From Gemmatimonadales bacterium (GTDB lineage Bacteria; Gemmatimonadota; Gemmatimonadetes; Gemmatimonadales; GWC2-71-9): a stretch of DNA of 64,000 nt. Made by a program: the position numbers and the translations under genes. The stretch covers positions 36,244 to 100,243 of the forward strand of contig DATJVM010000046.1 of assembly GCA_035501775.1 (NCBI GenBank), given 5' to 3'. A model generated the notes under the pieces. That model was not told the DNA's origin, searched no databases, and saw only the letters and a program-made list of their open reading frames with translations. Shown here piece by piece: positions 4,706-64,000 of the stretch (the first letter of the stretch is position 1; every line of letters starts with the position of its first letter).

Positions 4706-5839
4706 ATGTCCGAACCGCTTGCCGCGCAGGTCGCCGCCGTCCTGGGGCGCATTCAGAACCCGCGCCTCGAAAACGACCTGCTCTCCTCCGGCATGATCCG
4801 GGACCTGAACGTGAGCGAGGATGGCAAGGTCAGCTTCACCTTCCTCCTGGCGCGGGAAGATCCCGCGACCCTGGTGCGCGAGGCGCGGGCCGCCGTCCGC
4901 GCCGTTCCAGGCGTCAATCCCGCGGAGCTCAGAATCAGCGTGGTGGACCCGGGCGGGGCCGCGAAAGCCACCCACCCACCTCCAGGCCAGCCGGCTCCCG
5001 GCCAGACCCACGGCCAAGCCGGATTGGTTCCGCCCCCACCCTCGCCCAGCGACTACCCCAACCTCGGTCGCATCATCGCGATCTCGTCCGGCAAGGGCGG
5101 AGTGGGCAAGTCCACCGTGTCGGTGAACCTCGCGGTGGCCCTCGCATCCAGGGGCCATCGGGTGGGCCTCATGGACGGCGACATCTACGGGCCCAACGTG
5201 CCGAGGATGTTCGGGGTCTTCGAGAAGCCTCCGGTGGTACAGGGGAAGATCCAGCCCCTCGTGGCCTGGGGTGTGAAGCTGATGTCGCTGGGGTTCCTGG
5301 TGGATCGTGATGCTCCGGCCATCTGGCGCGGCCCGATCATCATGAAGATCGTGCAGCAGTTCCTGCGCGATGTGGACTGGGGCGACCTCGATTTCTTCAT
5401 CGTGGATCTCCCGCCCGGCACCGGGGACGCCCAACTGTCGCTGGTGCAGTCGTGCCAGGTGGCCACGGCCGTGATCGTGACCACGCCACAGGAGGTGGCC
5501 GTCGGCGACGCGCTGCGCGGCGCGCGGATGTTCGAGAAGGTGAACGTCCCGGTCTCGGGTGTCGTCGAGAACATGAGCGCCTGGACCGACCCCGCCACCG
5601 GGCACCGCCTCGAGATGTTCGGGAGCGGTGGCGGCCAGCGGCTCGCGGAGGAGCTCAAGATCCCGCTCCTGGGATCGATCCCTCTTCAGCCCGGCATGGC
5701 GGAACTCGCCGACCGCGGGAAACCCATCGTGGCCGCTGAACCCGAGAGCCCGGCCGCCAAGGCCCTCACGGCTATCGCGGACCAGCTGACCAGGGCAGGC
5801 GTGGTACGATCGGTGTCCCTCCCGGTGCTGCGCGGGTAG
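4706..5839 (+). CDS. apbC: Mrp/NBP35 (ApbC) Fe-S cluster carrier ATPase
   Basis: ORF 4694..5839. ATG at 4706 is preceded by GAGGA. Has an N-terminal DUF59-like region and the deviant Walker A SGKGGVGKST. Confidence 0.9.
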   Translation: MSEPLAAQVAAVLGRIQNPRLENDLLSSGMIRDLNVSEDGKVSFTFLLAREDPATLVREARAAVRAVPGVNPAELRISVVDPGGAAKATHPPPGQPAPGQTHGQAGLVPPPPSPSDYPNLGRIIAISSGKGGVGKSTVSVNLAVALASRGHRVGLMDGDIYGPNVPRMFGVFEKPPVVQGKIQPLVAWGVKLMSLGFLVDRDAPAIWRGPIIMKIVQQFLRDVDWGDLDFFIVDLPPGTGDAQLSLVQSCQVATAVIVTTPQEVAVGDALRGARMFEKVNVPVSGVVENMSAWTDPATGHRLEMFGSGGGQRLAEELKIPLLGSIPLQPGMAELADRGKPIVAAEPESPAAKALTAIADQLTRAGVVRSVSLPVLRG

Positions 5840-5873
5840 GCGGCCCGCCGAGTCCGCGGGCCCGACCGAGCCC

Positions 5874-6632
5874 ATGCCGATCATCACGCTCCTCACCGAT
5901 TTCGGAACCACCGACTCCTACGTGGGCGAACTCAAGGGCGTGCTGTGCTCCCGCGCCCCCGCCGCGACCCTGATTGACGTCACTCACACCATCGCTCCGG
6001 GGGATGTCGCCGCGGCAGCCTACGTGCTCGCCCGGACGTGGGTCCGCTTTCCGCCGGGGACCGTCCACCTCGCCGTGGTCGACCCCGGCGTCGGCACGGC
6101 GCGCGAGGCCCTGGCCCTCCGCGCGCGCGACCACTACTTCGTGGGCCCCGACAACGGGATCTTCTCGGGCGTCATTCGCGGGGCCGAGGTCGAGGCCGTC
6201 TCCCTGCCCACGCCGGCCGGAGCCGCGCCGACCTTCCACGGGCGAGACGTCTTCGCGCCCGCCGCCGCGCGACTGGCGGTGGGCGCGGGGCTGGAGAGCC
6301 TCGGCCAGCGCTTCACCGGCATTCCTCGCCGCGTGTCCGGGTCGGTGCCGCACTATGAAGGGAAGGTGCTGGTGGGCGAGGTGATCTACATCGATCGCTT
6401 CGGAAACCTGGTCACCAACTTCGCCGCCGAACTGGTTCCACCCCATGCCATGCTCGAGGTGGAGGCAACCACCATCGGTCCGGTCCGGAGCACCTTCGGC
6501 GATGTCCCGTCCGGAGGCCTGCTCGCCTACATGGGCTCCGGTGGGATGATCGAGATCGCGGTCCGGAACGGCTCGGCCGCCCGCCGACTGGGATTGGGAG
6601 TAGGAGGAAAGATCCGGGCGCGGCTCGGGTGA
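5874..6632 (+). CDS. SAM hydroxide adenosyltransferase / SAM-dependent halogenase-like (DUF62) family protein
   Basis: The N-terminus ITLLTDFGTTDSYVGELKGV and motifs VVDPGVG and GPDNG are typical of the DUF62 family. Confidence 0.75.
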   Translation: MPIITLLTDFGTTDSYVGELKGVLCSRAPAATLIDVTHTIAPGDVAAAAYVLARTWVRFPPGTVHLAVVDPGVGTAREALALRARDHYFVGPDNGIFSGVIRGAEVEAVSLPTPAGAAPTFHGRDVFAPAAARLAVGAGLESLGQRFTGIPRRVSGSVPHYEGKVLVGEVIYIDRFGNLVTNFAAELVPPHAMLEVEATTIGPVRSTFGDVPSGGLLAYMGSGGMIEIAVRNGSAARRLGLGVGGKIRARLG

Positions 6633-6645
6633 CCGACGCCGCTGA

Positions 6646-8223
6646 CTATTGGCGGGACCGCTCGCTGGGCGGGCGCTGAACGGCGGTGACCCCGAACTGG
6701 GGGGTGGCCCAGAGGTACTCGTCGGTGAGCGCCTCGGCCGGCAGGAGCCGCCCGGCAAAATGCTCGCGGAAGCCAGCCCGCGACAGGAGCGAGGCCCCGA
6801 ATCCCACGGTCGCGAGCAGCCAGGTGACCAGAACGGCCGTCGCGAGGACCAGCGTGCCCGCGACTGGCACCCATCCGAAGAGCACCCAGCAGAGCCAGAG
6901 AGCGGCCACCCCCGCCAGGCCCACCAGCACGTACCGGTAGCTGTTGGCCGACCCTAATGCCACGCCGCGTGCCAGTTGCCGCCGTGTCAGGCTCTCACCC
7001 ATGGCATGGGCCACGGCCAGGAACCCGCCGAGGACCGCGACGATCAAGAGCAGCGCGAAGACGATGACGGCGAACGGGACGAGAAGGATGCCGGCCACGC
7101 TGAGCACCAGGCCCACGATCAACATGCCGAAGGTGGGGAGGATCAACACCTCTCCCAGGAGCCCGACCAGGAGAGAGCGGCTGAAGGAGTGAAGCGCAGT
7201 ATCGCTGATGACCTCCAGCGGAGGCCGCGCGAAGAGCACGAGCCCGAACCCGACCAGGACCAGCGTGAAGAACACTCCCGCCACTCCGGCCGCGTTCCGC
7301 GAGGCGACCAGCCAGGCCGGCGGTGATTCCGGCGGCGCGGGGAGGCGGTCGGCGCTCGGCCGCGCCGAGTCGACGGTGCGGATCTGCCCCCGAATCTCGC
7401 CACCCAGGTCCCGCACCTGCCCCCGGACCGCGAGCACGTCGCCCGTGACCACCCCGCCGGGGTGGACCAGGATGTTGCCCTCCACGGTGGCCAGATTCCC
7501 GTCGAGTGTGCCGTAGATATCCGCGTCACCGCGCACCACGAGGAGCGGACCCGGGAACTCTTCGTCGGTACCGATGCTGAAATGCCCCTCGCGCGCCTGG
7601 CCACCCGGGACGGTGATCCGGAGCGCATCGCCCCGGAGCTCGGCGGCCGCGTGCAGCATGGGACTCAGGCGGACCGGATCGGACAGATCCGAGAGATCGA
7701 TCGTGAGTCCGCCGGGCGGGCTCGGCGCAATCCGCTGAGACTGGATGCCCGCGTCGGGTGGCGCGCTCAGCGGGGAGGCGCGCTGCCGGAACAATTCGGC
7801 GTAGGCGGCTTCCTCGTGGGACAGCCCCTGTGGATGCCACTCGCGAACCAGGTCCAGGGCCGCCGGAGTGCCCTTACGTGAGGCCTCTACCACGAGGGCG
7901 CGCCAGGCAGCCTCGAAGGCCCCCCCCGCCGGCGCGTGACCCACCAGGCGGCCGTCCACGCGTATGTCGCCGCCGTCCAGCGACAGGACCAGCGACCCGC
8001 CGTCCGCATAGTCGAACGTGAGCGACTCCATGCCCGTGGCGATCGTCACGCTGTGATCCCGCACCACGTGGCTCGGTGTCTCGGACAGGAACTGGCTCAC
8101 CAGCTCGAGGCGGGATCTCCACCCCGTGCTCGAGCCCACTACCGGTTCTTCGGCACGAAGCGCCACAGTGGCCGCGCCCAGCGCGGTCACGGCCAGCAGG
8201 ACCGCAGGCTTACGAAAGAGCAC
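6646..8223 (-). CDS. Membrane protein with bactofilin-like (polymer-forming) repeat region and C-terminal multi-TM domain
   Basis: ORF 6646..8316. The likely start is GTG at 8223 (VLFRKPAVLLAVTALGAATVALRA signal/TM). A central G-x-I/V-x-G repeat stretch (DADIYGTLDGNLATVEGNILVHPGGVVTGDVLAVRGQVRDLGGEIRGQIR) is followed by 4-5 C-terminal TM helices. It lies last in the ECF sigma operon. Confidence 0.5.
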   Translation of the reverse strand: MLFRKPAVLLAVTALGAATVALRAEEPVVGSSTGWRSRLELVSQFLSETPSHVVRDHSVTIATGMESLTFDYADGGSLVLSLDGGDIRVDGRLVGHAPAGGAFEAAWRALVVEASRKGTPAALDLVREWHPQGLSHEEAAYAELFRQRASPLSAPPDAGIQSQRIAPSPPGGLTIDLSDLSDPVRLSPMLHAAAELRGDALRITVPGGQAREGHFSIGTDEEFPGPLLVVRGDADIYGTLDGNLATVEGNILVHPGGVVTGDVLAVRGQVRDLGGEIRGQIRTVDSARPSADRLPAPPESPPAWLVASRNAAGVAGVFFTLVLVGFGLVLFARPPLEVISDTALHSFSRSLLVGLLGEVLILPTFGMLIVGLVLSVAGILLVPFAVIVFALLLIVAVLGGFLAVAHAMGESLTRRQLARGVALGSANSYRYVLVGLAGVAALWLCWVLFGWVPVAGTLVLATAVLVTWLLATVGFGASLLSRAGFREHFAGRLLPAEALTDEYLWATPQFGVTAVQRPPSERSRQ

Positions 8224-17071: not shown

Positions 17072-19267
17072 TCATTCAACGATGCTGATCGATTGCGTCG
17101 TGCGTGCCTGGGCTCCATCCTCGCGGGCAACCTCCACGATCAGCTCGTACTGGCCGGGCTGCACGGTCTCGAACGAGAGGGAGCGGGTCACGCGTGTCGT
17201 TGCTCCCTCGGCGTCCCCCTCCCATCCGGTCGTAAGCACAATCCTCTTCCCTCGACGAAGCGACAGCCGAGCGGAGTAGGACGAGCCGGTTCGGAGCCCG
17301 TAGATCTCGTAATAGAGCGCGATCGTATCGGTCCGGCGCCAGGTGCGGCGCGGATTGAAGTAGGCGGTATCCCCCTCCGCCGGGACCCAGCGCGCTCCCC
17401 GCTGTTCCTTGGAGAGGACAAGGTCGCTCACCGCGAGCCCCCCGCCGGTGAAGCGGCGGACATCGATCGAATCGGTGGGGAGAACGATGCCGGTCGAATC
17501 GCGAGTTTCGAGCGAGATCCGATAACGCCAGCGACCGGCGGGAGCCGGGACGGTGACGCGGCCCACGGCATCGACCGCGCCCCGCGCGGCCTCATCCCCG
17601 GGAAGCAGGATGAGCGAGGTCGTATCGACGTATGCCCCGACATGGCCCGCGCTGTCGAGGAGGCTCAGGCGGACCCGGAGCGGAAGGCGGAACGCCACCC
17701 GCTCGGGGAGCCGGGTCGGAGCCTCCAGGGCGACCTGGTAGGCAACGTGAATCAGCTGCTGTTCGCCGGCCGTGCCCACGGCAAAGGCCGCCGCCGCGGC
17801 CTCGAGGGCATGGGCGAACTTCGGCTCGTCTCCATCGCTGGAGACCGCCAGCGCCGCGCTCACTCTGGCGAGGTCGCTCTCCTCGCGGAGCACCCTGGCC
17901 GCGCCGTACCGGCCCCAGCTCTGGACCTTGCAGAATGGAGGGTACAGCGGGCAGCGATCGCCGATGATGACGTCCCTCGAGTCCTCATTCGTGTCCCCAC
18001 CGATCTCGAGGGCGCTCGGAATCAGGCGATAGTCGCGGATGTCACCGCCGGGATTGGCGGCGAAATCGAGGAGGAAGTCGCCGTCGGCACGGCGGTAGCG
18101 CCAGGTCTGATTGGGCGAGACGCCGAAGGCGTGCGTCTCGACCTTGGCGTCGGGCTCTCCGTAGCGGATATAGATGATCCCACGGTCGTCGAAACGGGTG
18201 CTGTTCGAATGGTAGATATCGGTCCACCCGCCGTTGCCGCCCAGGCCGTAGTGTCGCCGGTTCACCTCGAGCCCGTACCGTCGTTCGGCCGTTGTGATAC
18301 GCCGGTAGTGCTCCCGCAGCCGCTCCGGCTCGCTCCTGAGCGCCTGCGCCGCATGGTCCGACCAGAAGCGGTGCAGGGCCGCCGCCCGGCCTGGGCCACT
18401 GGCTCTGTCGAAGGCCGCGAGCGTGCTGTCGTCGGCGATGAGCGCGAGGTCTTCCCGGTACGCTGCTGCGCTGCTCGAGTCGTCCGCGGCCGCCCCCGCG
18501 TAATACGCGGAATCCCCGCCTGGCTCCCCGGCGACAAACAGGCTCCAGGCTAGCTCGTGAAGGCCCAGCCCCGGATTGCCGCCGGCGGCGAGATAGCGCC
18601 GGAACAGTCGGACCGAAGCCAGCGAGTCGCCCATCAACCGCTCCAGGCGCCCCAGTTCGAAGAGCAGCGTCGTGTCCGGCGCATCCTCGCTGGCGGCCCG
18701 GCGCAGCGCGGGCAGCACTACCTCCTTCTTCCGGGTGGTGTCCCCAAGGATCTGGGCGACCTGATACAGCCCGTGGGCAGCCACCGGGTCGCTGGGATCG
18801 AGCTCGAGGGCGCGGGCGAAGCTTCTGAGGGCCTCCTCGTACGACCCGAAGCCTACGCGCTTCCCGATGTTGAGCCGATCGCCGGCGAGCCAGTCACCCT
18901 CGGCCTGATACGCGACGCCTCGATAGGCCCACGTCGAGCCGGTGCCCGGCTCCAGTTCCGCGGCCTGATCGAAATCCCCGGTGGCCCGGCGGAAGCTCCA
19001 CCCATCGCCCAGCTCGCCGAGGCGGATCCGCACCAGGCCGCGCCGCAGGTGACGGTCGGCTTCGGCGGCGGAGTCGCTGAGCGATTCGTGGTAGCGATGC
19101 TCGAGATCGCGGAGCCGCGCCGGGTCTTCGATGGCGGCGACTTCAGTTTGGAAGGCCCGCAGGTCCCGCGGGGGGAAGACGGCCTGCGCACTCAGCCGAT
19201 GAGATGAGCCAAGCGACGCGGCCAGCAGGCTGGCGGCGAGCAGGGTGCGGCGAGGGGCGAGGGCCAT
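17072..19267 (-). CDS. Secreted TPR plus GWxTD domain protein
   Basis: Signal peptide MALAPRRTLLAASLLAASLG, TPR-like N-terminal half, and a GWxTD-type motif GGWTDIYHSNSTRFDDRGIIYIRYGEPD. Confidence 0.7.
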   Translation of the reverse strand: MALAPRRTLLAASLLAASLGSSHRLSAQAVFPPRDLRAFQTEVAAIEDPARLRDLEHRYHESLSDSAAEADRHLRRGLVRIRLGELGDGWSFRRATGDFDQAAELEPGTGSTWAYRGVAYQAEGDWLAGDRLNIGKRVGFGSYEEALRSFARALELDPSDPVAAHGLYQVAQILGDTTRKKEVVLPALRRAASEDAPDTTLLFELGRLERLMGDSLASVRLFRRYLAAGGNPGLGLHELAWSLFVAGEPGGDSAYYAGAAADDSSSAAAYREDLALIADDSTLAAFDRASGPGRAAALHRFWSDHAAQALRSEPERLREHYRRITTAERRYGLEVNRRHYGLGGNGGWTDIYHSNSTRFDDRGIIYIRYGEPDAKVETHAFGVSPNQTWRYRRADGDFLLDFAANPGGDIRDYRLIPSALEIGGDTNEDSRDVIIGDRCPLYPPFCKVQSWGRYGAARVLREESDLARVSAALAVSSDGDEPKFAHALEAAAAAFAVGTAGEQQLIHVAYQVALEAPTRLPERVAFRLPLRVRLSLLDSAGHVGAYVDTTSLILLPGDEAARGAVDAVGRVTVPAPAGRWRYRISLETRDSTGIVLPTDSIDVRRFTGGGLAVSDLVLSKEQRGARWVPAEGDTAYFNPRRTWRRTDTIALYYEIYGLRTGSSYSARLSLRRGKRIVLTTGWEGDAEGATTRVTRSLSFETVQPGQYELIVEVAREDGAQARTTQSISIVE

Positions 19268-60278: not shown

Positions 60279-60290
60279 CCGCGGAACGCC

Positions 60291-60314
60291 GAGGGCCCCT
60301 CGAGAGGGGCCCTC
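60291..60314. terminator. GC-rich palindromic hairpin between the lipoprotein gene and the tRNA fragment (possible bidirectional terminator)
   Basis: GAGGGCCCCTC (60291-60301) is the reverse complement of GAGGGGCCCTC (60304-60314). Flanking T-tracts are weak. Confidence 0.4.
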
Positions 60315-60325
60315 AGCGATTTGCA

Positions 60326-60375
60326 TGCGAACGCCGGGACTCGAACCCGGACGGGTTGCCCCACAGGATCCTAAG
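60326..60375 (-). other. 3-prime half of a tRNA-Leu(UAG)-like gene (anticodon loop to discriminator base) with no 5-prime half: putative att core/junction
   Basis: The minus strand reads CTTAGGA-TCCTG-TGGGGCAACCCGTC-CCGGGTTCGAGTCCCGG-CGTTCGC-A. That is anticodon loop, 3-prime anticodon stem, long variable arm, T-arm and acceptor 3-prime strand. The complementary acceptor strand (GCGAACG) and D-arm are absent upstream. Confidence 0.7.
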
Positions 60376-60493
60376 AAACGCTTCACGCTGTGACTAGACG
60401 TGACTCGGTTGGAAGCGGATGACTTAGACGTCGGAACTAGTGCCTAGTTGTGACAGGGAGTGACACCGGCGCTGCATTGGGGTTGCATTCCCT

Positions 60494-60536
60494 ACAAAGA
60501 AACTCGCCCCGATGCCCTTACGGGTCCGGGGCGAGT
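60494..60536 (-). terminator. Intrinsic terminator closing the minus-strand cassette
   Basis: On the minus strand a perfect 10-bp stem ACTCGCCCCG/CGGGGCGAGT with a 15-nt loop is followed by TTCTTTGT. It lies 18 nt after the stop of ORF 60555..60773. Confidence 0.65.
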
Positions 60537-60554
60537 GGCTTCCCCTCGGTCAGA

Positions 60555-60773
60555 CTATGGCTGGTAGCGAATCAGGTCAACGCTTGCCGGTGGCAGCGGC
60601 AGGTGGGCAAGGAAGAATGGCTGCACTGCCGTGGAGGTCAGTCGCGTTCCTGCAAGCGGATCGCTTACGGAATAGTTCGCCGCGCTGGGCGCCCACAGCC
60701 CCGCAGACACAAATAGCGGATCAAGAGACTCGATTGTATGGGGCGTGTCGTCGATCATCATAGTTGAGTCCAA
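60555..60773 (-). CDS. Possible 72-aa protein of unknown function (fourth cassette gene)
   Basis: ATG start overlaps the SDH protease 3-prime end by 16 nt, and the terminator lies just downstream. I recognised no family. Confidence 0.3.
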   Translation of the reverse strand: MDSTMMIDDTPHTIESLDPLFVSAGLWAPSAANYSVSDPLAGTRLTSTAVQPFFLAHLPLPPASVDLIRYQP

Positions 60774-61744
60774 CCTTCCCGGATAACCTGCATCTGGACG
60801 CCCTGTGGCGCTAGGGCGGCACGACCCTCAGTCTGAAAACCGTCCAGCCTTCCTGCCGACTCGATGTAGGCCCGGTCGAGCTTAAACGGGTACGGGTTCG
60901 TGGTTGCCAGTGCGGCCAAAGGGTTAAATGGCGCACGCAACTCCAGGTCTGCTTCGTATTGTTGCAGCAAATCCACAAGCGCCTGCTCAAGTTTCGACTC
61001 CGGCTCCTCAACCTTGAGCCCGATGCTCTTTGCCTCGCGCCGGGTGATAAGGTAGTCGTGCGAGTAAAGCTTTTCCGTAAGCGTTTCGATTATTCCGTCC
61101 ACCGTTGGGTCGTCGCCTTTCGTGTGAAACTGCAACAACTTGCGAGAAAGCATCCGGATCTGCGTCCGCGACCGGAATACCTGCCCTAGGGCCACCGGCC
61201 GCACGTCTGATGCCAGCTTCTCGAAAACGCTGACCATCCCGTCCTCGCCCTTGATGTCCGCCGCCTCACGCGCCAGGCTCAGGTACCCAATCACCTCCTC
61301 AACACTGACCGGGAGGGTCGGGAGGGGGGCGCCGGGTTGGATCGGCATCCCATGTACGAGGGGGTTGTAGGGCCCGTTGGTGGAGGGGTCCACTGGAGAA
61401 AGCTGCCCCTCCGGGAGCATGATGATCCGGTCGGCGCCCAAGGCAACGAGCGTCCCGGCGCTTTGGCAACGAAAGGGAACAAGCAGAGTGAACTCGTTGC
61501 AATACTCTCGGATCAGCCCCACTAGACGGAACGCCGACATCACGTCGCCGCCGAGTGTGTAGAGGAATAGATCCAATTTCGGCTGCTTGCCGATTAGCCG
61601 AAGATGTCGCGACGCGAGCGGGATCAGATCGGCCGCGACACGCGTTTCCATACCCTGTCGATCGCCGAGCACGATCGTCAGGACCCGACTACCTCGGGCT
61701 TTCTCGATCCGCTGAAGCGCTGCTACACGAGTATCTCGCGGCAC
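60758..61744 (-). CDS. SDH-family (serine dehydrogenase proteinase) ClpP/SppA-fold serine protease
   Basis: The stretch LTIVLGDRQGMETRVAADLIP...KLDLFLYTLGGDVMSAFRLVGLIREYCNEFTLLVPFRCQSAGTLVALGADRIIMLPEGQLSPVDPS matches my memory of the SDH family core, with the Ser in QSAGT. GTG start is preceded by AGGAAG at 6-nt spacing. Confidence 0.8.
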   Translation of the reverse strand: MPRDTRVAALQRIEKARGSRVLTIVLGDRQGMETRVAADLIPLASRHLRLIGKQPKLDLFLYTLGGDVMSAFRLVGLIREYCNEFTLLVPFRCQSAGTLVALGADRIIMLPEGQLSPVDPSTNGPYNPLVHGMPIQPGAPLPTLPVSVEEVIGYLSLAREAADIKGEDGMVSVFEKLASDVRPVALGQVFRSRTQIRMLSRKLLQFHTKGDDPTVDGIIETLTEKLYSHDYLITRREAKSIGLKVEEPESKLEQALVDLLQQYEADLELRAPFNPLAALATTNPYPFKLDRAYIESAGRLDGFQTEGRAALAPQGVQMQVIREGWTQL

Positions 61745-61786
61745 CGAATACTTCCTAGGAAGAGAGCTAACAACTTACCACCATCT

Positions 61787-62563
61787 TCATGGTGGCGGTG
61801 GTATAGGCGTTTCAGCCGTCGTCGTGGGGTCAATCTTACGCGCCCACGTCTGGATGTGATCTTCGAGTTCCCCGAGACACTGATCGTGTTCCTGGAATTC
61901 GGACGGCTCAAGCTCGTGGCCAACGACATCCTTCCCGCTGACCGTCAGCTGCATGATCTGGACGTCTCCCCCAATCCCGCCGGGGTTAGTCTGGATTGCG
62001 TGGCGCATCGCCCAGAGCGCGCCGAGGGTTCCGTCTGCGAGACTGGGCGTCTTGTTCTTCCAGAGCACTCGGCGGACGAAATACATGAACGGTTCTGCTA
62101 AGTGCTGCCCACTCCCTGCGGTAGTGAATGTCAGCGGGTCTGGCCCAATGAACATCGGTTGGCAAGAATGCGCGACACTCACTAAGCAGGGAGTTGAGTC
62201 GAGGGGATAGGCAACAACCAGCTGAAAGCCTGCCTGTTGGAGGACGATCTGCGAATTGTTTTGGGCCTTCGCCTGTTGTTCGGCGAGCTTCCATTCGTCC
62301 TCAACCAGCGGCTTAATCGCCTCTCGCAGCTTTGTCAGGGAGCGGGCAACTGGCCCAGTCCGAAAGGACTTCATGTGGTCGTGGAGCGCGCCACACAAAC
62401 GCTGCCCAAAGGGTACTGAGCCAGCGACCCCGACGATGAGCGGGTCTGAGGTATGGAGGGTCAGCTTGCGCCCGAGCGGCAGGGCGGTGGGTCCAGTGGA
62501 AACCGCACTATCAGCTGCGACGACGATGCCATCGTGGCACCGTACTCCGATAATGAGGGTCAC
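61787..62563 (-). CDS. Proteasome beta-subunit/HslV-like Ntn-hydrolase (Thr protease) homolog
   Basis: (f)M-TLIIGVRCHDGIVVAADSAV...GRKLTL...IVGVAGS...TTAGSGQ. Thr is the first residue after the initiator. Asp at mature position 17, Lys at 32 and the GSG motif fit the T1/D17/K33/S129-G130 proteasome pattern. Confidence 0.75.
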   Translation of the reverse strand: MTLIIGVRCHDGIVVAADSAVSTGPTALPLGRKLTLHTSDPLIVGVAGSVPFGQRLCGALHDHMKSFRTGPVARSLTKLREAIKPLVEDEWKLAEQQAKAQNNSQIVLQQAGFQLVVAYPLDSTPCLVSVAHSCQPMFIGPDPLTFTTAGSGQHLAEPFMYFVRRVLWKNKTPSLADGTLGALWAMRHAIQTNPGGIGGDVQIMQLTVSGKDVVGHELEPSEFQEHDQCLGELEDHIQTWARKIDPTTTAETPIPPPP

Positions 62564-62567
62564 TCAG

Positions 62568-63032
62568 TCAGTCGCGGAAGACGCTCTTGGCGCGCATGGC
62601 CGGGTAGGCCTCATAGATGGCGCGCACGAGGTCGTTGAACGGTAGGGACTGGGCCCACCGCACAACATCGTTCAGGTAGGCAAGGCCGTCCTGGGGAGCG
62701 CGCGTAGCGATGTGCTGCGCAGCTTGCTGCCCCTCTGGCGTCAGCTGATAGCGGCGTAAGCTGTTGCCGCGCGAATAGTCCACGGAGATGAAATCGGTTA
62801 GTGCGAACAGGTCTGCGTCGTTGTAGATCTGTCGGCAAAATGGGCCGTAGTTGTACGGCTCGAAGCGGTAGAATCCCGGGTGGACCGTCGCCTTCTTCCT
62901 CTCGCCGAGGAGGAAGAGAACCTTCTGGAGCTGAACCGGGGTAAGGCCGCTGCGCGACCGCTCAAGTGCGAGCAGCAGCCAATCGCGCGGTTCCAACCGT
63001 GGCGATCGGACCTTATTCGGCGTCTTGGCCAT
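62568..63032 (-). CDS. DUF4065/Panacea (SocA-like) domain protein, predicted wHTH
   Basis: ORF 62568..63209. The ATG at 63032 has GGAG 9 nt upstream. LTPVQLQKVLFLLGE...FEPYNYGPFCRQIYNDADLF resembles the kLqKLLY...W.yGPv..evY signature of DUF4065. The stop lies 4 nt before the next gene's GTG. Confidence 0.5.
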   Translation of the reverse strand: MAKTPNKVRSPRLEPRDWLLLALERSRSGLTPVQLQKVLFLLGERKKATVHPGFYRFEPYNYGPFCRQIYNDADLFALTDFISVDYSRGNSLRRYQLTPEGQQAAQHIATRAPQDGLAYLNDVVRWAQSLPFNDLVRAIYEAYPAMRAKSVFRD

Positions 63033-63171: not shown

Positions 63172-64000
63172 TCATATTCCCGCAACGGGCTCCTTGAATG
63201 GCCCGTCAAACCGCGCGGTTCCGTCGGCGGCTACGGCCAGGACGCATGCATCGAGGCGGTCCGGGCTGCGCGCGATGATCGCCCGCCACTCCGCCTTGCT
63301 GATGATCTGGAGCTTCCCGGAGGAGTTCGTGAATCCCCGACAGGTCCGGAGCTCCTCCTCCAGCAGCGGGTCGGGCGGCAGCGCCACCAGCCCCCGCACC
63401 AACATCGTCCGGAACCGGTCGTAGGCCTCGGCCCGGAGGTTTGCGTACCGGATCACCGCGCCCTCCTCCTCGGGGCGCTTCGAGGCGATGAACGCCGTGC
63501 AGGGGTAGCCCGCCTCGCGGAGCCGGTCGCCGAGCCCTTTCCCGACGCCGATCTCATCTACGACCACGGAGGTCGGTGGCCCCAGCGCGGTGAGCGGGTC
63601 GCCCATGATCCTGACCGGGAACCCGGCGGCCATCAGCGCGGTTGCCCGGGCGGTCTCGCGGATCTTCGGCGGGACGTGCAGCTCGCGGAAGATGTCGATG
63701 ATCCGCCCCACCGACCTCATGGTGTCCGACTCCCGCCACGTGATCAGCCGTTCCACGAACCCGCCCCGCGCGACGGCGATCACCGATTCATCGCCGGCTT
63801 CTGAGGCCCCGACGTCCACGCCCAGGACACGGCGCTTCCGCTGCTGCGTGACCTGGAAGGCCGCGTTCTCGTACCGAGCGAAGGCGGCGGCGATGGCCTC
63901 GGGCGGGAAGAAGGCGTCGGAGGGCGACTCCGGGAACCGCGCGCAGACCCGCGACTGGAAGACCGCCGACTCCTCGCCGTAGGTCCAGCGGAGATTGTCG
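63172..64000 (-). CDS. terL: Phage terminase large subunit, C-terminal (nuclease) part; N-terminus beyond the window
   Basis: The frame stays open from 63819 up to base 64000 (...YGEESAVFQSRVCARFPESPSDAFFPPEAIAAAFARYENAAFQVTQQRKRRVLGVDVGASEAGDESVIAVA...VVVDEIGVGKGLGDRLREAG...YANLRAEAYDRFR...SSGKLQIISKAEWRAIIARSPDRLDACVLAVA). This is the classic RNaseH-like terminase nuclease pattern. Confidence 0.75.
   Translation of the reverse strand, partial: DNLRWTYGEESAVFQSRVCARFPESPSDAFFPPEAIAAAFARYENAAFQVTQQRKRRVLGVDVGASEAGDESVIAVARGGFVERLITWRESDTMRSVGRIIDIFRELHVPPKIRETARATALMAAGFPVRIMGDPLTALGPPTSVVVDEIGVGKGLGDRLREAGYPCTAFIASKRPEEEGAVIRYANLRAEAYDRFRTMLVRGLVALPPDPLLEEELRTCRGFTNSSGKLQIISKAEWRAIIARSPDRLDACVLAVAADGTARFDGPFKEPVAGI

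What the first reader, a model, noticed from the sequence alone, without database searches (positions are those of the whole stretch)
60326..60375. Half a tRNA-Leu gene marks an integration junction
Only the anticodon loop, variable arm, T-arm and acceptor 3-prime strand are present. The 5-prime acceptor strand and D-arm cannot be found upstream.

Established knowledge: tyrosine integrases that target tRNA 3-prime ends leave an intact tRNA at one end of the element and a displaced 3-prime fragment at the other.

Given the tRNA orientation (minus strand), the element should extend rightwards. An intact tRNA-Leu plus an integrase would then lie beyond base 64000. The composition shift begins exactly here.
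Basis: partly seen in the sequence, partly recalled or inferred. Interest (0 to 1): 0.6.

Follow-up and report, generated by a model that had tools for sequence, protein, structure and literature searches.

The report
Displaced tRNA-Leu half marks integrase-less island
The 50 bases are the cut-off original 3' half of a leucine tRNA gene, left behind when a small mobile element inserted into the gene's anticodon loop; the repaired tRNA sits 5.8 kb to the right, but the element has no integrase, so this is an ordinary, probably immobile island remnant.

Summary
Window 60326-60375 (minus strand) is the 3' half of tRNA-Leu(UAG), from anticodon loop to discriminator base, with no 5' half. ARAGORN and Rfam find no tRNA there.

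An intact tRNA-Leu(UAG) lies on the same strand 5,873 bp to the right, at window-equivalent 66199-66280 on the same contig. It carries an 86%-identical copy of the 50 nt. The 5.8 kb between the copies is lower in G+C (0.63 against 0.67). Its signature TerL-like gene is missing from the genus relatives sampled, and several relatives have an empty site.

No integrase exists in the island or anywhere on the contig. The island carries:
- an XRE repressor
- a DUF2299 protein
- a terminase-large-subunit-like gene
- a Panacea-like plus proteasome-like gene pair
- an SDH protease

The two repeat copies differ by three compensatory base-pair flips in the variable arm. The fragment matches the tRNA type of the closest relatives, so the working tRNA is a host/element chimera. 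The crossover was in the anticodon loop (CTTAGGAT).

A roughly 115-bp arm next to the fragment is conserved in one other genome, and TGCATT doublets mark both island ends. Intact relatives of the element carry integrase, primase-polymerase and TerL. This is a known kind of feature and a degraded member of it. Interest is low to moderate.

The parts
60287..60318 (.). Host-side hairpin (stem GGGCCCCTC / GAGGGGCCC) just downstream of the displaced tRNA 3' end and of the convergent lipoprotein gene. Read as the native terminator of the original tRNA.
   Evidence: Inverted repeat I11. The motif GGGCCCCTC-N-GAGGGGCCC occurs only twice in the 3.85-Mb genome, here and just after the intact tRNA.
60326..60375 (-). 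Displaced 3' half of tRNA-Leu(UAG), from anticodon loop to discriminator base. This is the attR core plus the host B' arm and is inferred to be the host's original sequence.
   Evidence: D1: 50 nt, 86% identity, spacing 5,873. No tRNA model match. The variable arm GGGGCAACCC and the T-loop match the nearest relatives G014, G016 and G008. The in-silico empty site folds as tRNA-Leu.
60368..60375 (-). CTTAGGAT, the anticodon loop plus one base. Inferred crossover (overlap) region of the recombination.
   Evidence: Homology between fragment and intact tRNA starts exactly here. In G098 the duplicated 5' halves of the same tRNA end exactly here. T34-C41 of these bases are invariant in all 22 aligned sequences.
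60376..60491 (.). Element-side arm of attR (P arm), about 115 bp. It holds GTGAC(T) repeats, the palindrome AACTAGTGCCTAGTT and a TGCATT doublet. Inferred to carry integrase or accessory-protein binding sites.
   Evidence: About 80% identical to the arm beside the tRNA-Leu fragment of genome G017, whose cargo is otherwise unrelated. Found in only 2 of 401 genomes of the family.
60473..60489 (+). TGCATT-N5-TGCATT doublet, a candidate arm-type site. A twin doublet lies at the other island end, at window-equivalent 66139-66156.
   Evidence: Three such doublets occur in the genome against 0.05 expected, and two of them are at the island ends. The same motif (GTGCATTGAAGGTGCATT) lies about 105-115 nt from the core in the arms of the integrase-bearing G098 element.
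60497..60541 (-). Hairpin followed by TTTCTTTG on the minus strand. Read as the terminator of the island's last (cargo) operon.
   Evidence: Inverted repeat I13 and the sequence.
60758..61744 (-). Cargo gene: ClpP-fold SDH-type serine protease (328 aa).
   Evidence: PF01972, E=4e-17. phrog_11747, E=1e-35.
61787..62563 (-). Cargo gene: divergent proteasome/HslV-like Ntn hydrolase (258 aa).
   Evidence: PF00227, E=4.5e-4, below the family cut-off. phrog_1040, HslV family.
62568..63032 (-). Cargo gene: Panacea/SocA-like small protein (154 aa as called on public contigs).
   Evidence: PADLOC PDC-M19A E=5e-11 and a DarG-antitoxin-like hit. Gene call.
63172..64000 (-). C-terminal part of the terminase-large-subunit-like gene. 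The full gene is 523 aa and runs on to window-equivalent 64743. It is the only core gene left from the parent element.
   Evidence: phrog_2 terminase large subunit, E=6e-25. Homologues sit in integrase / Prim-Pol / TerL elements. A 22-bp frameshifting deletion breaks it in a strain that is otherwise identical over the 500 bp aligned.

Best explanation
**What it is.** Window 60326-60375 is the host's original 3' half of tRNA-Leu(UAG). It was displaced when a small integrative element recombined site-specifically with the tRNA gene inside the anticodon loop (core CTTAGGAT).

**How it formed.**
- The element carried its own copy of the tRNA 3' half plus a terminator hairpin.
- That copy now completes the working tRNA 5.8 kb to the right (attL), so the working tRNA is a chimera of host 5' half and element 3' half.
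- The fragment plus a conserved arm of about 115 bp forms attR.

**What the element was.** It belongs to a family whose intact members encode a tyrosine integrase, a Prim-Pol/AAA_25 replicase, small genes, a TerL-like protein and variable cargo. They have no capsid genes.

**Present state.** In this Gemmatimonadales genome the integrase and replicase are gone. What remains is:
- an XRE / DUF2299 divergent switch
- the TerL-like gene
- two protease-containing cargo modules

The island is therefore most likely a fixed, decaying remnant that can no longer move by itself.

**Shown:** the repeat, the intact tRNA, the empty sites, the lack of an integrase, the conserved arm.

**Inferred:** the crossover position, which copy is native, the loss (rather than original absence) of the integrase, and the binding-site role of the TGCATT and GTGAC repeats.
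For: 1. An intact tRNA-Leu(UAG) lies on the same strand 5,873 bp away, with an 86% direct repeat of exactly the 50 nt.
2. The seven differences are three G-C to C-G pair flips in the variable-arm stem plus one T-loop base. Both copies therefore evolved as working tRNA parts and are not a local duplication.
3. By GlmS identity the nearest relatives are G014, G016 and G008 (93-94%). They carry the fragment's variable-arm and T-loop type. The intact tRNA's 3' half is 100% identical to the more distant G001, G002, G006, G015 and G022 (89-90% where full length).
4. Empty sites exist. G021 has both flanking genes around one tRNA. About ten genus members have an intact tRNA roughly 0.9 kb from the sigma gene.
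5. The terminator-like hairpin is duplicated with the tRNA half and occurs nowhere else in the genome.
6. Island G+C is 0.627 against 0.672 for the flanks. Its TerL-like gene is absent from all but one of the genus relatives listed, and that one hit (G003, 28%) is distant.
7. The arm next to the fragment is 80% conserved with G017's attR, although the cargo is unrelated.
8. TGCATT doublets lie at both island ends (0.05 expected genome-wide). The same motif lies in the arms of the integrase-bearing G098 element.
9. TerL homologues (46-47% identity) sit in integrase / Prim-Pol / TerL elements. The G098 one lies at tRNA-Leu(UAG), with repeats ending at CTTAGGAT.
10. There is no integrase domain on the contig and no homologue of the G098 integrase in the 98.6%-complete genome.
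11. The same island is seen in every contig of this species long enough to show it, from at least three samples. One strain has a 22-bp frameshifting deletion in terL.
Against: - No integrase remnant or pseudogene was found, so loss is inferred from relatives, not seen.
- Calling the fragment native rests on a single-gene (GlmS) ranking of relatives. The genus is polymorphic for this tRNA.
- The closest intact relative (G098) is inserted in the opposite orientation and duplicates the 5' half, so its integrase may not be the cognate type.
- G017's tRNA-proximal side is not conserved with this island.
- The TerL assignment rests on a PHROG profile only. Pfam gave no hit and the PDB sequence search gave only weak acylphosphatase matches at E about 0.01.
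Confidence: 0.82

Rival explanations
1. Same integration event, but the island is a cis-mobilizable element (CIME-like). It is naturally or secondarily integrase-less, keeps functional attL and attR, and is still excised and moved in trans by the integrase of a related element that visits the same tRNA site.
For: - Both ends keep repeated TGCATT doublets, and attR keeps a conserved arm of about 115 bp.
- A second genome (G017) has another integrase-less islet with the same arm at the same site.
- tRNA-Leu(UAG) is repeatedly occupied in this family, with tandem arrays in G098.
Against: - No homologue of the G098-type integrase exists in this genome.
- The only other TGCATT doublet lies beside a frameshifted, unrelated integrase on contig C55.
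- The island is seen in every contig of the species that is long enough to show it.
- terL is broken in one strain, which suggests decay rather than active transfer.
Confidence: 0.12
2. The intact tRNA is wholly native and the fragment is the element's copy. The crossover was at the 3' end of the tRNA (acceptor or T-loop block), so the variable arm of the fragment comes from the element's P arm.
For: - The intact tRNA is 100% identical to that of five genus members.
- Three identity blocks of 12-14 bp exist, so a 3' crossover is mechanically possible.
- G021, the relative with both flanks conserved, has the CCCGCAAGGG variable arm.
Against: - The nearest relatives by GlmS carry the fragment's type.
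- In G017 the fragment carries that lineage's own T-stem, while the adjacent arm is the shared element sequence.
- Homology with the tRNA starts exactly at the anticodon loop, where the G098 repeats also end.
- An element has no need to carry tRNA sequence on the P side of a 3' crossover.
Confidence: 0.05
3. There was no mobile-element integration. The fragment is a decayed copy from a tandem tRNA duplication, or a chance resemblance.
For: No integrase is present.
Against: - Relatives have a single tRNA at this locus.
- The intervening DNA differs in composition and is phage- or element-like.
- The differences are compensatory rather than decay.
- The adjacent arm is shared with another genome's junction.
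- The repeat boundaries coincide with the anticodon loop and the discriminator base.
Confidence: 0.01

Closest known systems
tRNA-gene genomic islands of the kind catalogued by Islander (PMC4383910), with the sublocation classes of tyrosine integrases (anticodon-loop class) described by Williams in 2002 (the 2002 paper is cited from my own knowledge)
   Same: - The target tRNA gene is split.
- Element-borne sequence regenerates it.
- The regenerated gene and the displaced fragment mark the two ends as direct repeats.
- The crossover is in the anticodon loop, flanked by the symmetric anticodon stem.
- The element lies 3' of the intact tRNA.
   Different: - There is no integrase gene in the island.
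- It is only 5.8 kb.
- The repeat is 86% identical, with compensatory variable-arm changes, so the working tRNA is a visible chimera.
CIMEs (cis-mobilizable elements), meaning att-flanked and integrase-less derivatives of integrative elements (ICEberg 2.0, PMC6323972; IME review, PMC5704250)
   Same: It is flanked by attL and attR derived from a site-specific integration. It lacks recombination and replication or transfer genes. It carries only accessory genes.
   Different: CIMEs were defined for ICE and IME families of Firmicutes, and trans-mobilization was demonstrated for them. Here the parent looks like a capsid-less integrase / Prim-Pol / TerL element of Gemmatimonadales, and no helper or cognate integrase is present in the genome.
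Integrase / Prim-Pol / TerL-like elements found here: G098 contig C15 and the JGI 3300056388 contig carrying P0009. They resemble phage satellites or cryptic prophage remnants.
   Same: - The TerL-like protein is 46-47% identical.
- Variable cargo, which looks defence-like to me, follows terL.
- Genes are transcribed away from the intact-tRNA end.
- G098 uses the same tRNA-Leu(UAG) anticodon loop and has TGCATT-type doublets about 105-115 nt from the core.
   Different: - The window's island lacks the integrase, the Prim-Pol and the small genes. It has an XRE / DUF2299 pair in their place.
- G098 is inserted in the opposite orientation and duplicates the 5' half of the tRNA together with about 100 nt upstream.

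Membership tests
tRNA-integrated genomic island (Islander-type) | Intact target tRNA gene at one end | tested here: met
   ARAGORN finds tRNA-Leu(tag) at C46 c[102441,102523]. Rfam RF00005 scores it at 53.9 bits.
tRNA-integrated genomic island (Islander-type) | Displaced tRNA fragment, as a direct repeat in the same orientation, at the other end | tested here: met
   50 nt, 86% identity, spacing 5,873, same strand.
tRNA-integrated genomic island (Islander-type) | Tyrosine integrase gene inside the island, usually next to the intact tRNA | tested here: not met
   No PF00589 match on contig C46. No integrase among the island ORFs of at least 80 aa or in the scans of its six candidate genes. The gene next to the tRNA is an XRE repressor.
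tRNA-integrated genomic island (Islander-type) | Island absent from related genomes, which have an uninterrupted site | tested here: met
   Empty sites in G021, G015, G006, G001, G002, G016, G008 and others. The TerL-like gene has no hit in the genus relatives listed, apart from a distant one (28%) in G003.
CIME (cis-mobilizable element) | Flanked by att sites and devoid of recombination or mobility genes | tested here: met
   attL and attR repeats. No integrase and no G098-type integrase in the genome.
CIME (cis-mobilizable element) | Excision or mobilization in trans by a cognate element's integrase | not testable with these tools
Prophage or phage satellite | Packaging gene (terminase large subunit) | tested here: inconclusive
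   phrog_2 at E=6e-25. Pfam gave no hit and the PDB sequence search gave no terminase.
Prophage or phage satellite | Capsid, portal or tail genes (prophage); or integrase plus replicase plus helper-interference genes (satellite) | tested here: not met
   None among the six island genes. Integrase and Prim-Pol are present only in relatives.

The most novel reading that the evidence does not exclude
The island is a relic of an undescribed family of capsid-less integrase / Prim-Pol / TerL integrative elements of Gemmatimonadales, possibly phage satellites.
- They target the anticodon loop of tRNA-Leu(UAG).
- They use TGCATT-doublet arm sites.
- They can insert in either orientation, carrying either the 3' half (this genus) or the 5' half plus promoter (G098) of the tRNA.
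- They seed the site with integrase-less islets of cargo that looks defence-related or metabolic, and whose conserved att arms may still allow trans-mobilization.
Probability: 0.3. Interest if true: 0.5.

Novelty: new member of a known kind. Interest (0 to 1): 0.28.

Why it matters
**Island limits.** The fragment fixes the left end of a 5.8-kb island at window 60376. The right end is at the tRNA, window-equivalent 66198.

**Context for neighbouring findings.** Other notes of this scan describe unusual protease cargo genes here (the Panacea-like plus proteasome-like pair and the SDH protease). This result places them as horizontally acquired cargo of a decayed mobile element.

**The working tRNA is a chimera.** The cell's tRNA-Leu(UAG) is part host and part element. 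This matters for tRNA phylogeny and for genome annotation.

**Beyond that it is routine.** It is a textbook signature of tRNA-targeted integration. Its wider value is as a first handle on mobile elements and their att sites in the little-studied Gemmatimonadales.

Tried and rejected
- **Complete tRNA at the fragment.** Looked for with ARAGORN and with Rfam at permissive thresholds. None found.
- **Integrase.** Looked for in the island, on the contig and in the genome. There is none on C46. A tblastn search with the G098 integrase found nothing.
- **C55 integrase as the cognate enzyme.** It lies next to the third TGCATT doublet, but it is frameshifted and unrelated to the G098 integrase. The link is left as weak.
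- **Shared hairpin as a common genomic repeat.** It is not. There are only two copies.
- **Strain-level decay of the cargo in contig ERZ27256612.** The different gene calls there turned out to be gene-calling differences on 100%-identical DNA. That claim was dropped. Only the 22-bp terL deletion in JGI 3300032892 is real.
- **Other homology checks.** DUF2299 and the Panacea-like protein have no counterparts beside G098's terL. The G017 tRNA-proximal side shares no homology with this island.
- **The search for related loci with TerL in genome contigs.** It found nothing.
- **PDB sequence search with TerL.** It gave no terminase, only weak acylphosphatase matches.

Full report
**1. The observation**

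The reverse complement of window 60326-60375 reads CTTAGGATCCTGTGGGGCAACCCGTCCGGGTTCGAGTCCCGGCGTTCGCA. It covers:
- the anticodon loop, with anticodon UAG
- the 3' strand of the anticodon stem
- a long variable arm
- the T-arm
- the 3' acceptor strand and discriminator A

ARAGORN finds no tRNA anywhere in the window. Rfam finds no tRNA match here, either at E<=10 or at gathering score. The bases on its 5' side do not resemble a D-arm.

**2. The partner**

The window is G000:C46:36244-100243 on a 109.6-kb contig. The organism is an uncultured member of Gemmatimonadales, judged from GlmS relatives.

ARAGORN on the whole genome finds one tRNA-Leu(UAG), on the same contig and strand, at c[102441,102523]. 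This is window-equivalent 66198-66280. Rfam places it at 66199-66280 with 53.9 bits.

The repeat finder pairs the fragment with the tRNA's 3' half. The repeat is 50 nt, 86% identical, with a spacing of 5,873 bp. No other copy exists in the genome.

The seven differences are not decay:
- Six of them flip three G-C pairs of the variable-arm stem (GGGGCAACCC against CCCGCAAGGG).
- One lies in the T-loop.

Joining the fragment to the tRNA's 5' half in silico gives a perfect 82-nt tRNA-Leu(UAG).

A hairpin, GGGCCCCTC-loop-GAGGGGCCC, follows both copies and occurs nowhere else in 3.85 Mb. The duplicated unit is therefore the tRNA 3' half plus a terminator.

**3. Empty sites**

- In about ten genomes of the same genus, the ECF sigma gene of the left flank lies roughly 0.9 kb from an intact tRNA-Leu(UAG).
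- In G021 both flanking genes, the polysaccharide deacetylase and the sigma factor, bracket a single tRNA within 1.8 kb.
- The island's TerL-like gene is absent from the genus relatives listed, apart from a distant 28% hit in G003.
- Island G+C is 0.627 against 0.672 for the flanks. The drop starts at the fragment.

**4. Which copy is native, and where the crossover was**

The genus has at least two versions of the tRNA 3' half.
- By GlmS identity the nearest relatives are G014, G016, G005 and G008 (93-94%). G014, G016 and G008 carry the fragment's type, with variable arm GGGG(C/A)AACCC and T-loop GAGTC.
- The intact tRNA's 3' half is 100% identical to that of G001, G002, G006, G015 and G022. 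G001, G002 and G022 score 89-90% for GlmS. G006 scores 93% over a partial match, and G015 gave no GlmS hit.

So the fragment is most likely the host's original. The working tRNA is a chimera of the host 5' half and the element's 3' half.

Homology between the two copies begins exactly at C32 of the anticodon loop. In genome G098, three copies of the 5' half of the same tRNA end exactly at CTTAGGAT. T34-C41 of this stretch are invariant across all relatives aligned. CTTAGGAT is therefore the inferred crossover region. This is the classical anticodon-loop sublocation.

**5. The arms**

The roughly 115 bp on the element side of the fragment (window 60376-60491) are about 80% identical to the sequence beside a tRNA-Leu fragment in genome G017. 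That fragment lies at the same locus, after the sigma factor and lipoprotein genes. Everything further in is unrelated: G017's 2.6-kb islet encodes an ArsR-rhodanese regulator, a DsrE-like protein and an SQR-like oxidoreductase, and has no integrase.

Only these two of 401 genomes of the family have the arm.

G017's fragment carries that lineage's own T-stem and shows random decay. This again fits a native fragment next to an element-derived arm.

The arm ends in a TGCATT-N5-TGCATT doublet. A twin doublet lies 45-60 bp inside the other island end. Genome-wide there are three such doublets against 0.05 expected. The arms of the G098 elements carry GTGCATTGAAGGTGCATT about 105-115 nt from the core. 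I read these doublets as arm-type binding sites. That is an inference.

The tRNA-proximal sides of G000 and G017 are not conserved.

**6. Content of the island**

Reading from the intact tRNA:
- the element-borne terminator hairpin
- an XRE repressor, divergent from a DUF2299 gene, with strong divergent promoter-like sites between them
- a 523-aa TerL-like gene (phrog_2, E=6e-25)
- a Panacea/SocA-like gene followed by a proteasome/HslV-like gene
- an SDH ClpP-fold protease
- a terminator, the arm and the fragment

There is no integrase. PF00589 has nine hits in the genome and none on C46.

**7. The parent element**

TerL homologues are rare and come from metagenomes. The informative contexts are these:
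- G098 (46% identity): integrase, then a Prim-Pol/AAA_25 protein, then TerL, then a DNA methylase, beside tRNA-Leu(UAG).
- P0009 (47% identity): integrase, Prim-Pol/AAA_25, six small genes, TerL, then cargo.
- P0002 and P0004: TerL followed by methylases or an AAA_15/21 ATPase.
- P0013 and P0016: remnants without an integrase.

No capsid genes were seen in any of them.

This genome has no homologue of the G098 integrase. G098 is inserted in the opposite orientation and duplicates the 5' half of the tRNA, so I do not claim that its integrase is the cognate type.

**8. State in the population**

The same island, 100% identical over the 6.4 kb compared, is on the contigs from ERZ27256612 and ERZ27256514, and a 4.2-kb stretch is on SRR8881005. 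It is next to the lipoprotein gene on all four contigs long enough to show it, from at least three samples. No empty-site variant turned up.

In JGI 3300032892 a 22-bp deletion frameshifts terL. The rest of the 500 bp aligned is identical. This is consistent with relaxed selection on the element's core gene.

**9. Verdict**

Its interpretation is right in all respects except the integrase.

The feature is attR of a tRNA-Leu(UAG)-integrated element that has lost its integrase and replicase. This is a known kind of structure (Islander-type island, CIME-like remnant). It has some attractive details:
- a visibly chimeric tRNA
- a conserved att arm
- a candidate new element family in Gemmatimonadales

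Earlier notes of this scan on the cargo modules (e1-3203308, e1-3203309), on the repeats by the att site (e1-3203314) and on terL being followed by cargo (e1-3203315) fit this frame. I tested the arm repeats and the terL context myself, but not the cargo claims.

Noticed in passing
G000 contig C2:1-39 and C2:11682-11720; contig C33:7285-7370 and 7520-7969: The 5' half of tRNA-Leu(UAA), up to the anticodon loop, occurs twice on contig C2, 11.7 kb apart, with one copy at the contig start. The intact tRNA-Leu(UAA) on C33 has a tyrosine integrase on its 5' side. This looks like a second element in the same genome that duplicates the 5' half of a Leu tRNA, as in G098.
   Followed up: partly
L034 (G017:C27) 4838-7595: A second integrase-less islet lies at the same tRNA-Leu(UAG) site in a genus relative. 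A decayed 3' fragment and the conserved arm are followed by genes for an ArsR-rhodanese regulator, a DsrE-like protein and an SQR-like oxidoreductase (2.6 kb), and then the intact tRNA.
   Followed up: partly
L066 (G098:C15:18000-37500) 180-221, 2908-2949, 18174-18256: This is a tandem array at tRNA-Leu(UAG) in another genus. Two displaced 5' halves bound a 2.7-kb islet and a 15.3-kb element carrying integrase, Prim-Pol, TerL and a methylase. One 5' half carries about 100 nt of upstream sequence. All repeats end at CTTAGGAT, and the arms carry GTGCA(T/C)T doublets.
   Followed up: partly
G000 contig C55:20900-22875 (L064 12926-14490): The only other TGCATT doublet in the genome lies at the start of an excisionase-like HTH gene. 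Next to it is a tyrosine integrase that is split by a frameshift within the HDLRH motif region. That integrase is unrelated to the G098 integrase.
   Followed up: partly
L153 (JGI 3300032892) about 13540, equivalent to L001 6419-6440, window-equivalent 64175-64196: A 22-bp deletion flanked by GCCGC microhomology frameshifts the TerL-like gene. The rest of the 500 bp aligned is identical to this genome.
   Followed up: yes
G011:C73:6753-6809 (contig end) and G014:C10:64360-64441 (contig end): In two genus relatives the contig breaks inside or at the tRNA-Leu(UAG) gene. In G011 the break is exactly at the anticodon loop, after a 3' half that is 100% identical to the intact tRNA here. This suggests further insertions or strain heterogeneity at this hotspot.
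   Followed up: no
L001 7909-7994 (window-equivalent 65665-65750): Strong divergent sigma-70-like promoters lie between the DUF2299 gene and the XRE repressor gene (TTGACC-17-TATAAT and TAGACA-17-TATACT). AATGCA motifs lie about 100 bp downstream, inside the start of the XRE gene. The layout resembles a phage-like genetic switch.
   Followed up: no
window 60758-63032: There are two protease-containing cargo modules, an SDH protease and a Panacea-like plus proteasome-like pair. They are already the subject of other notes of this scan. Here they are shown to lie inside the att-bounded island, downstream of terL, where relatives carry methylases or AAA_15/21 ATPases.
   Followed up: no
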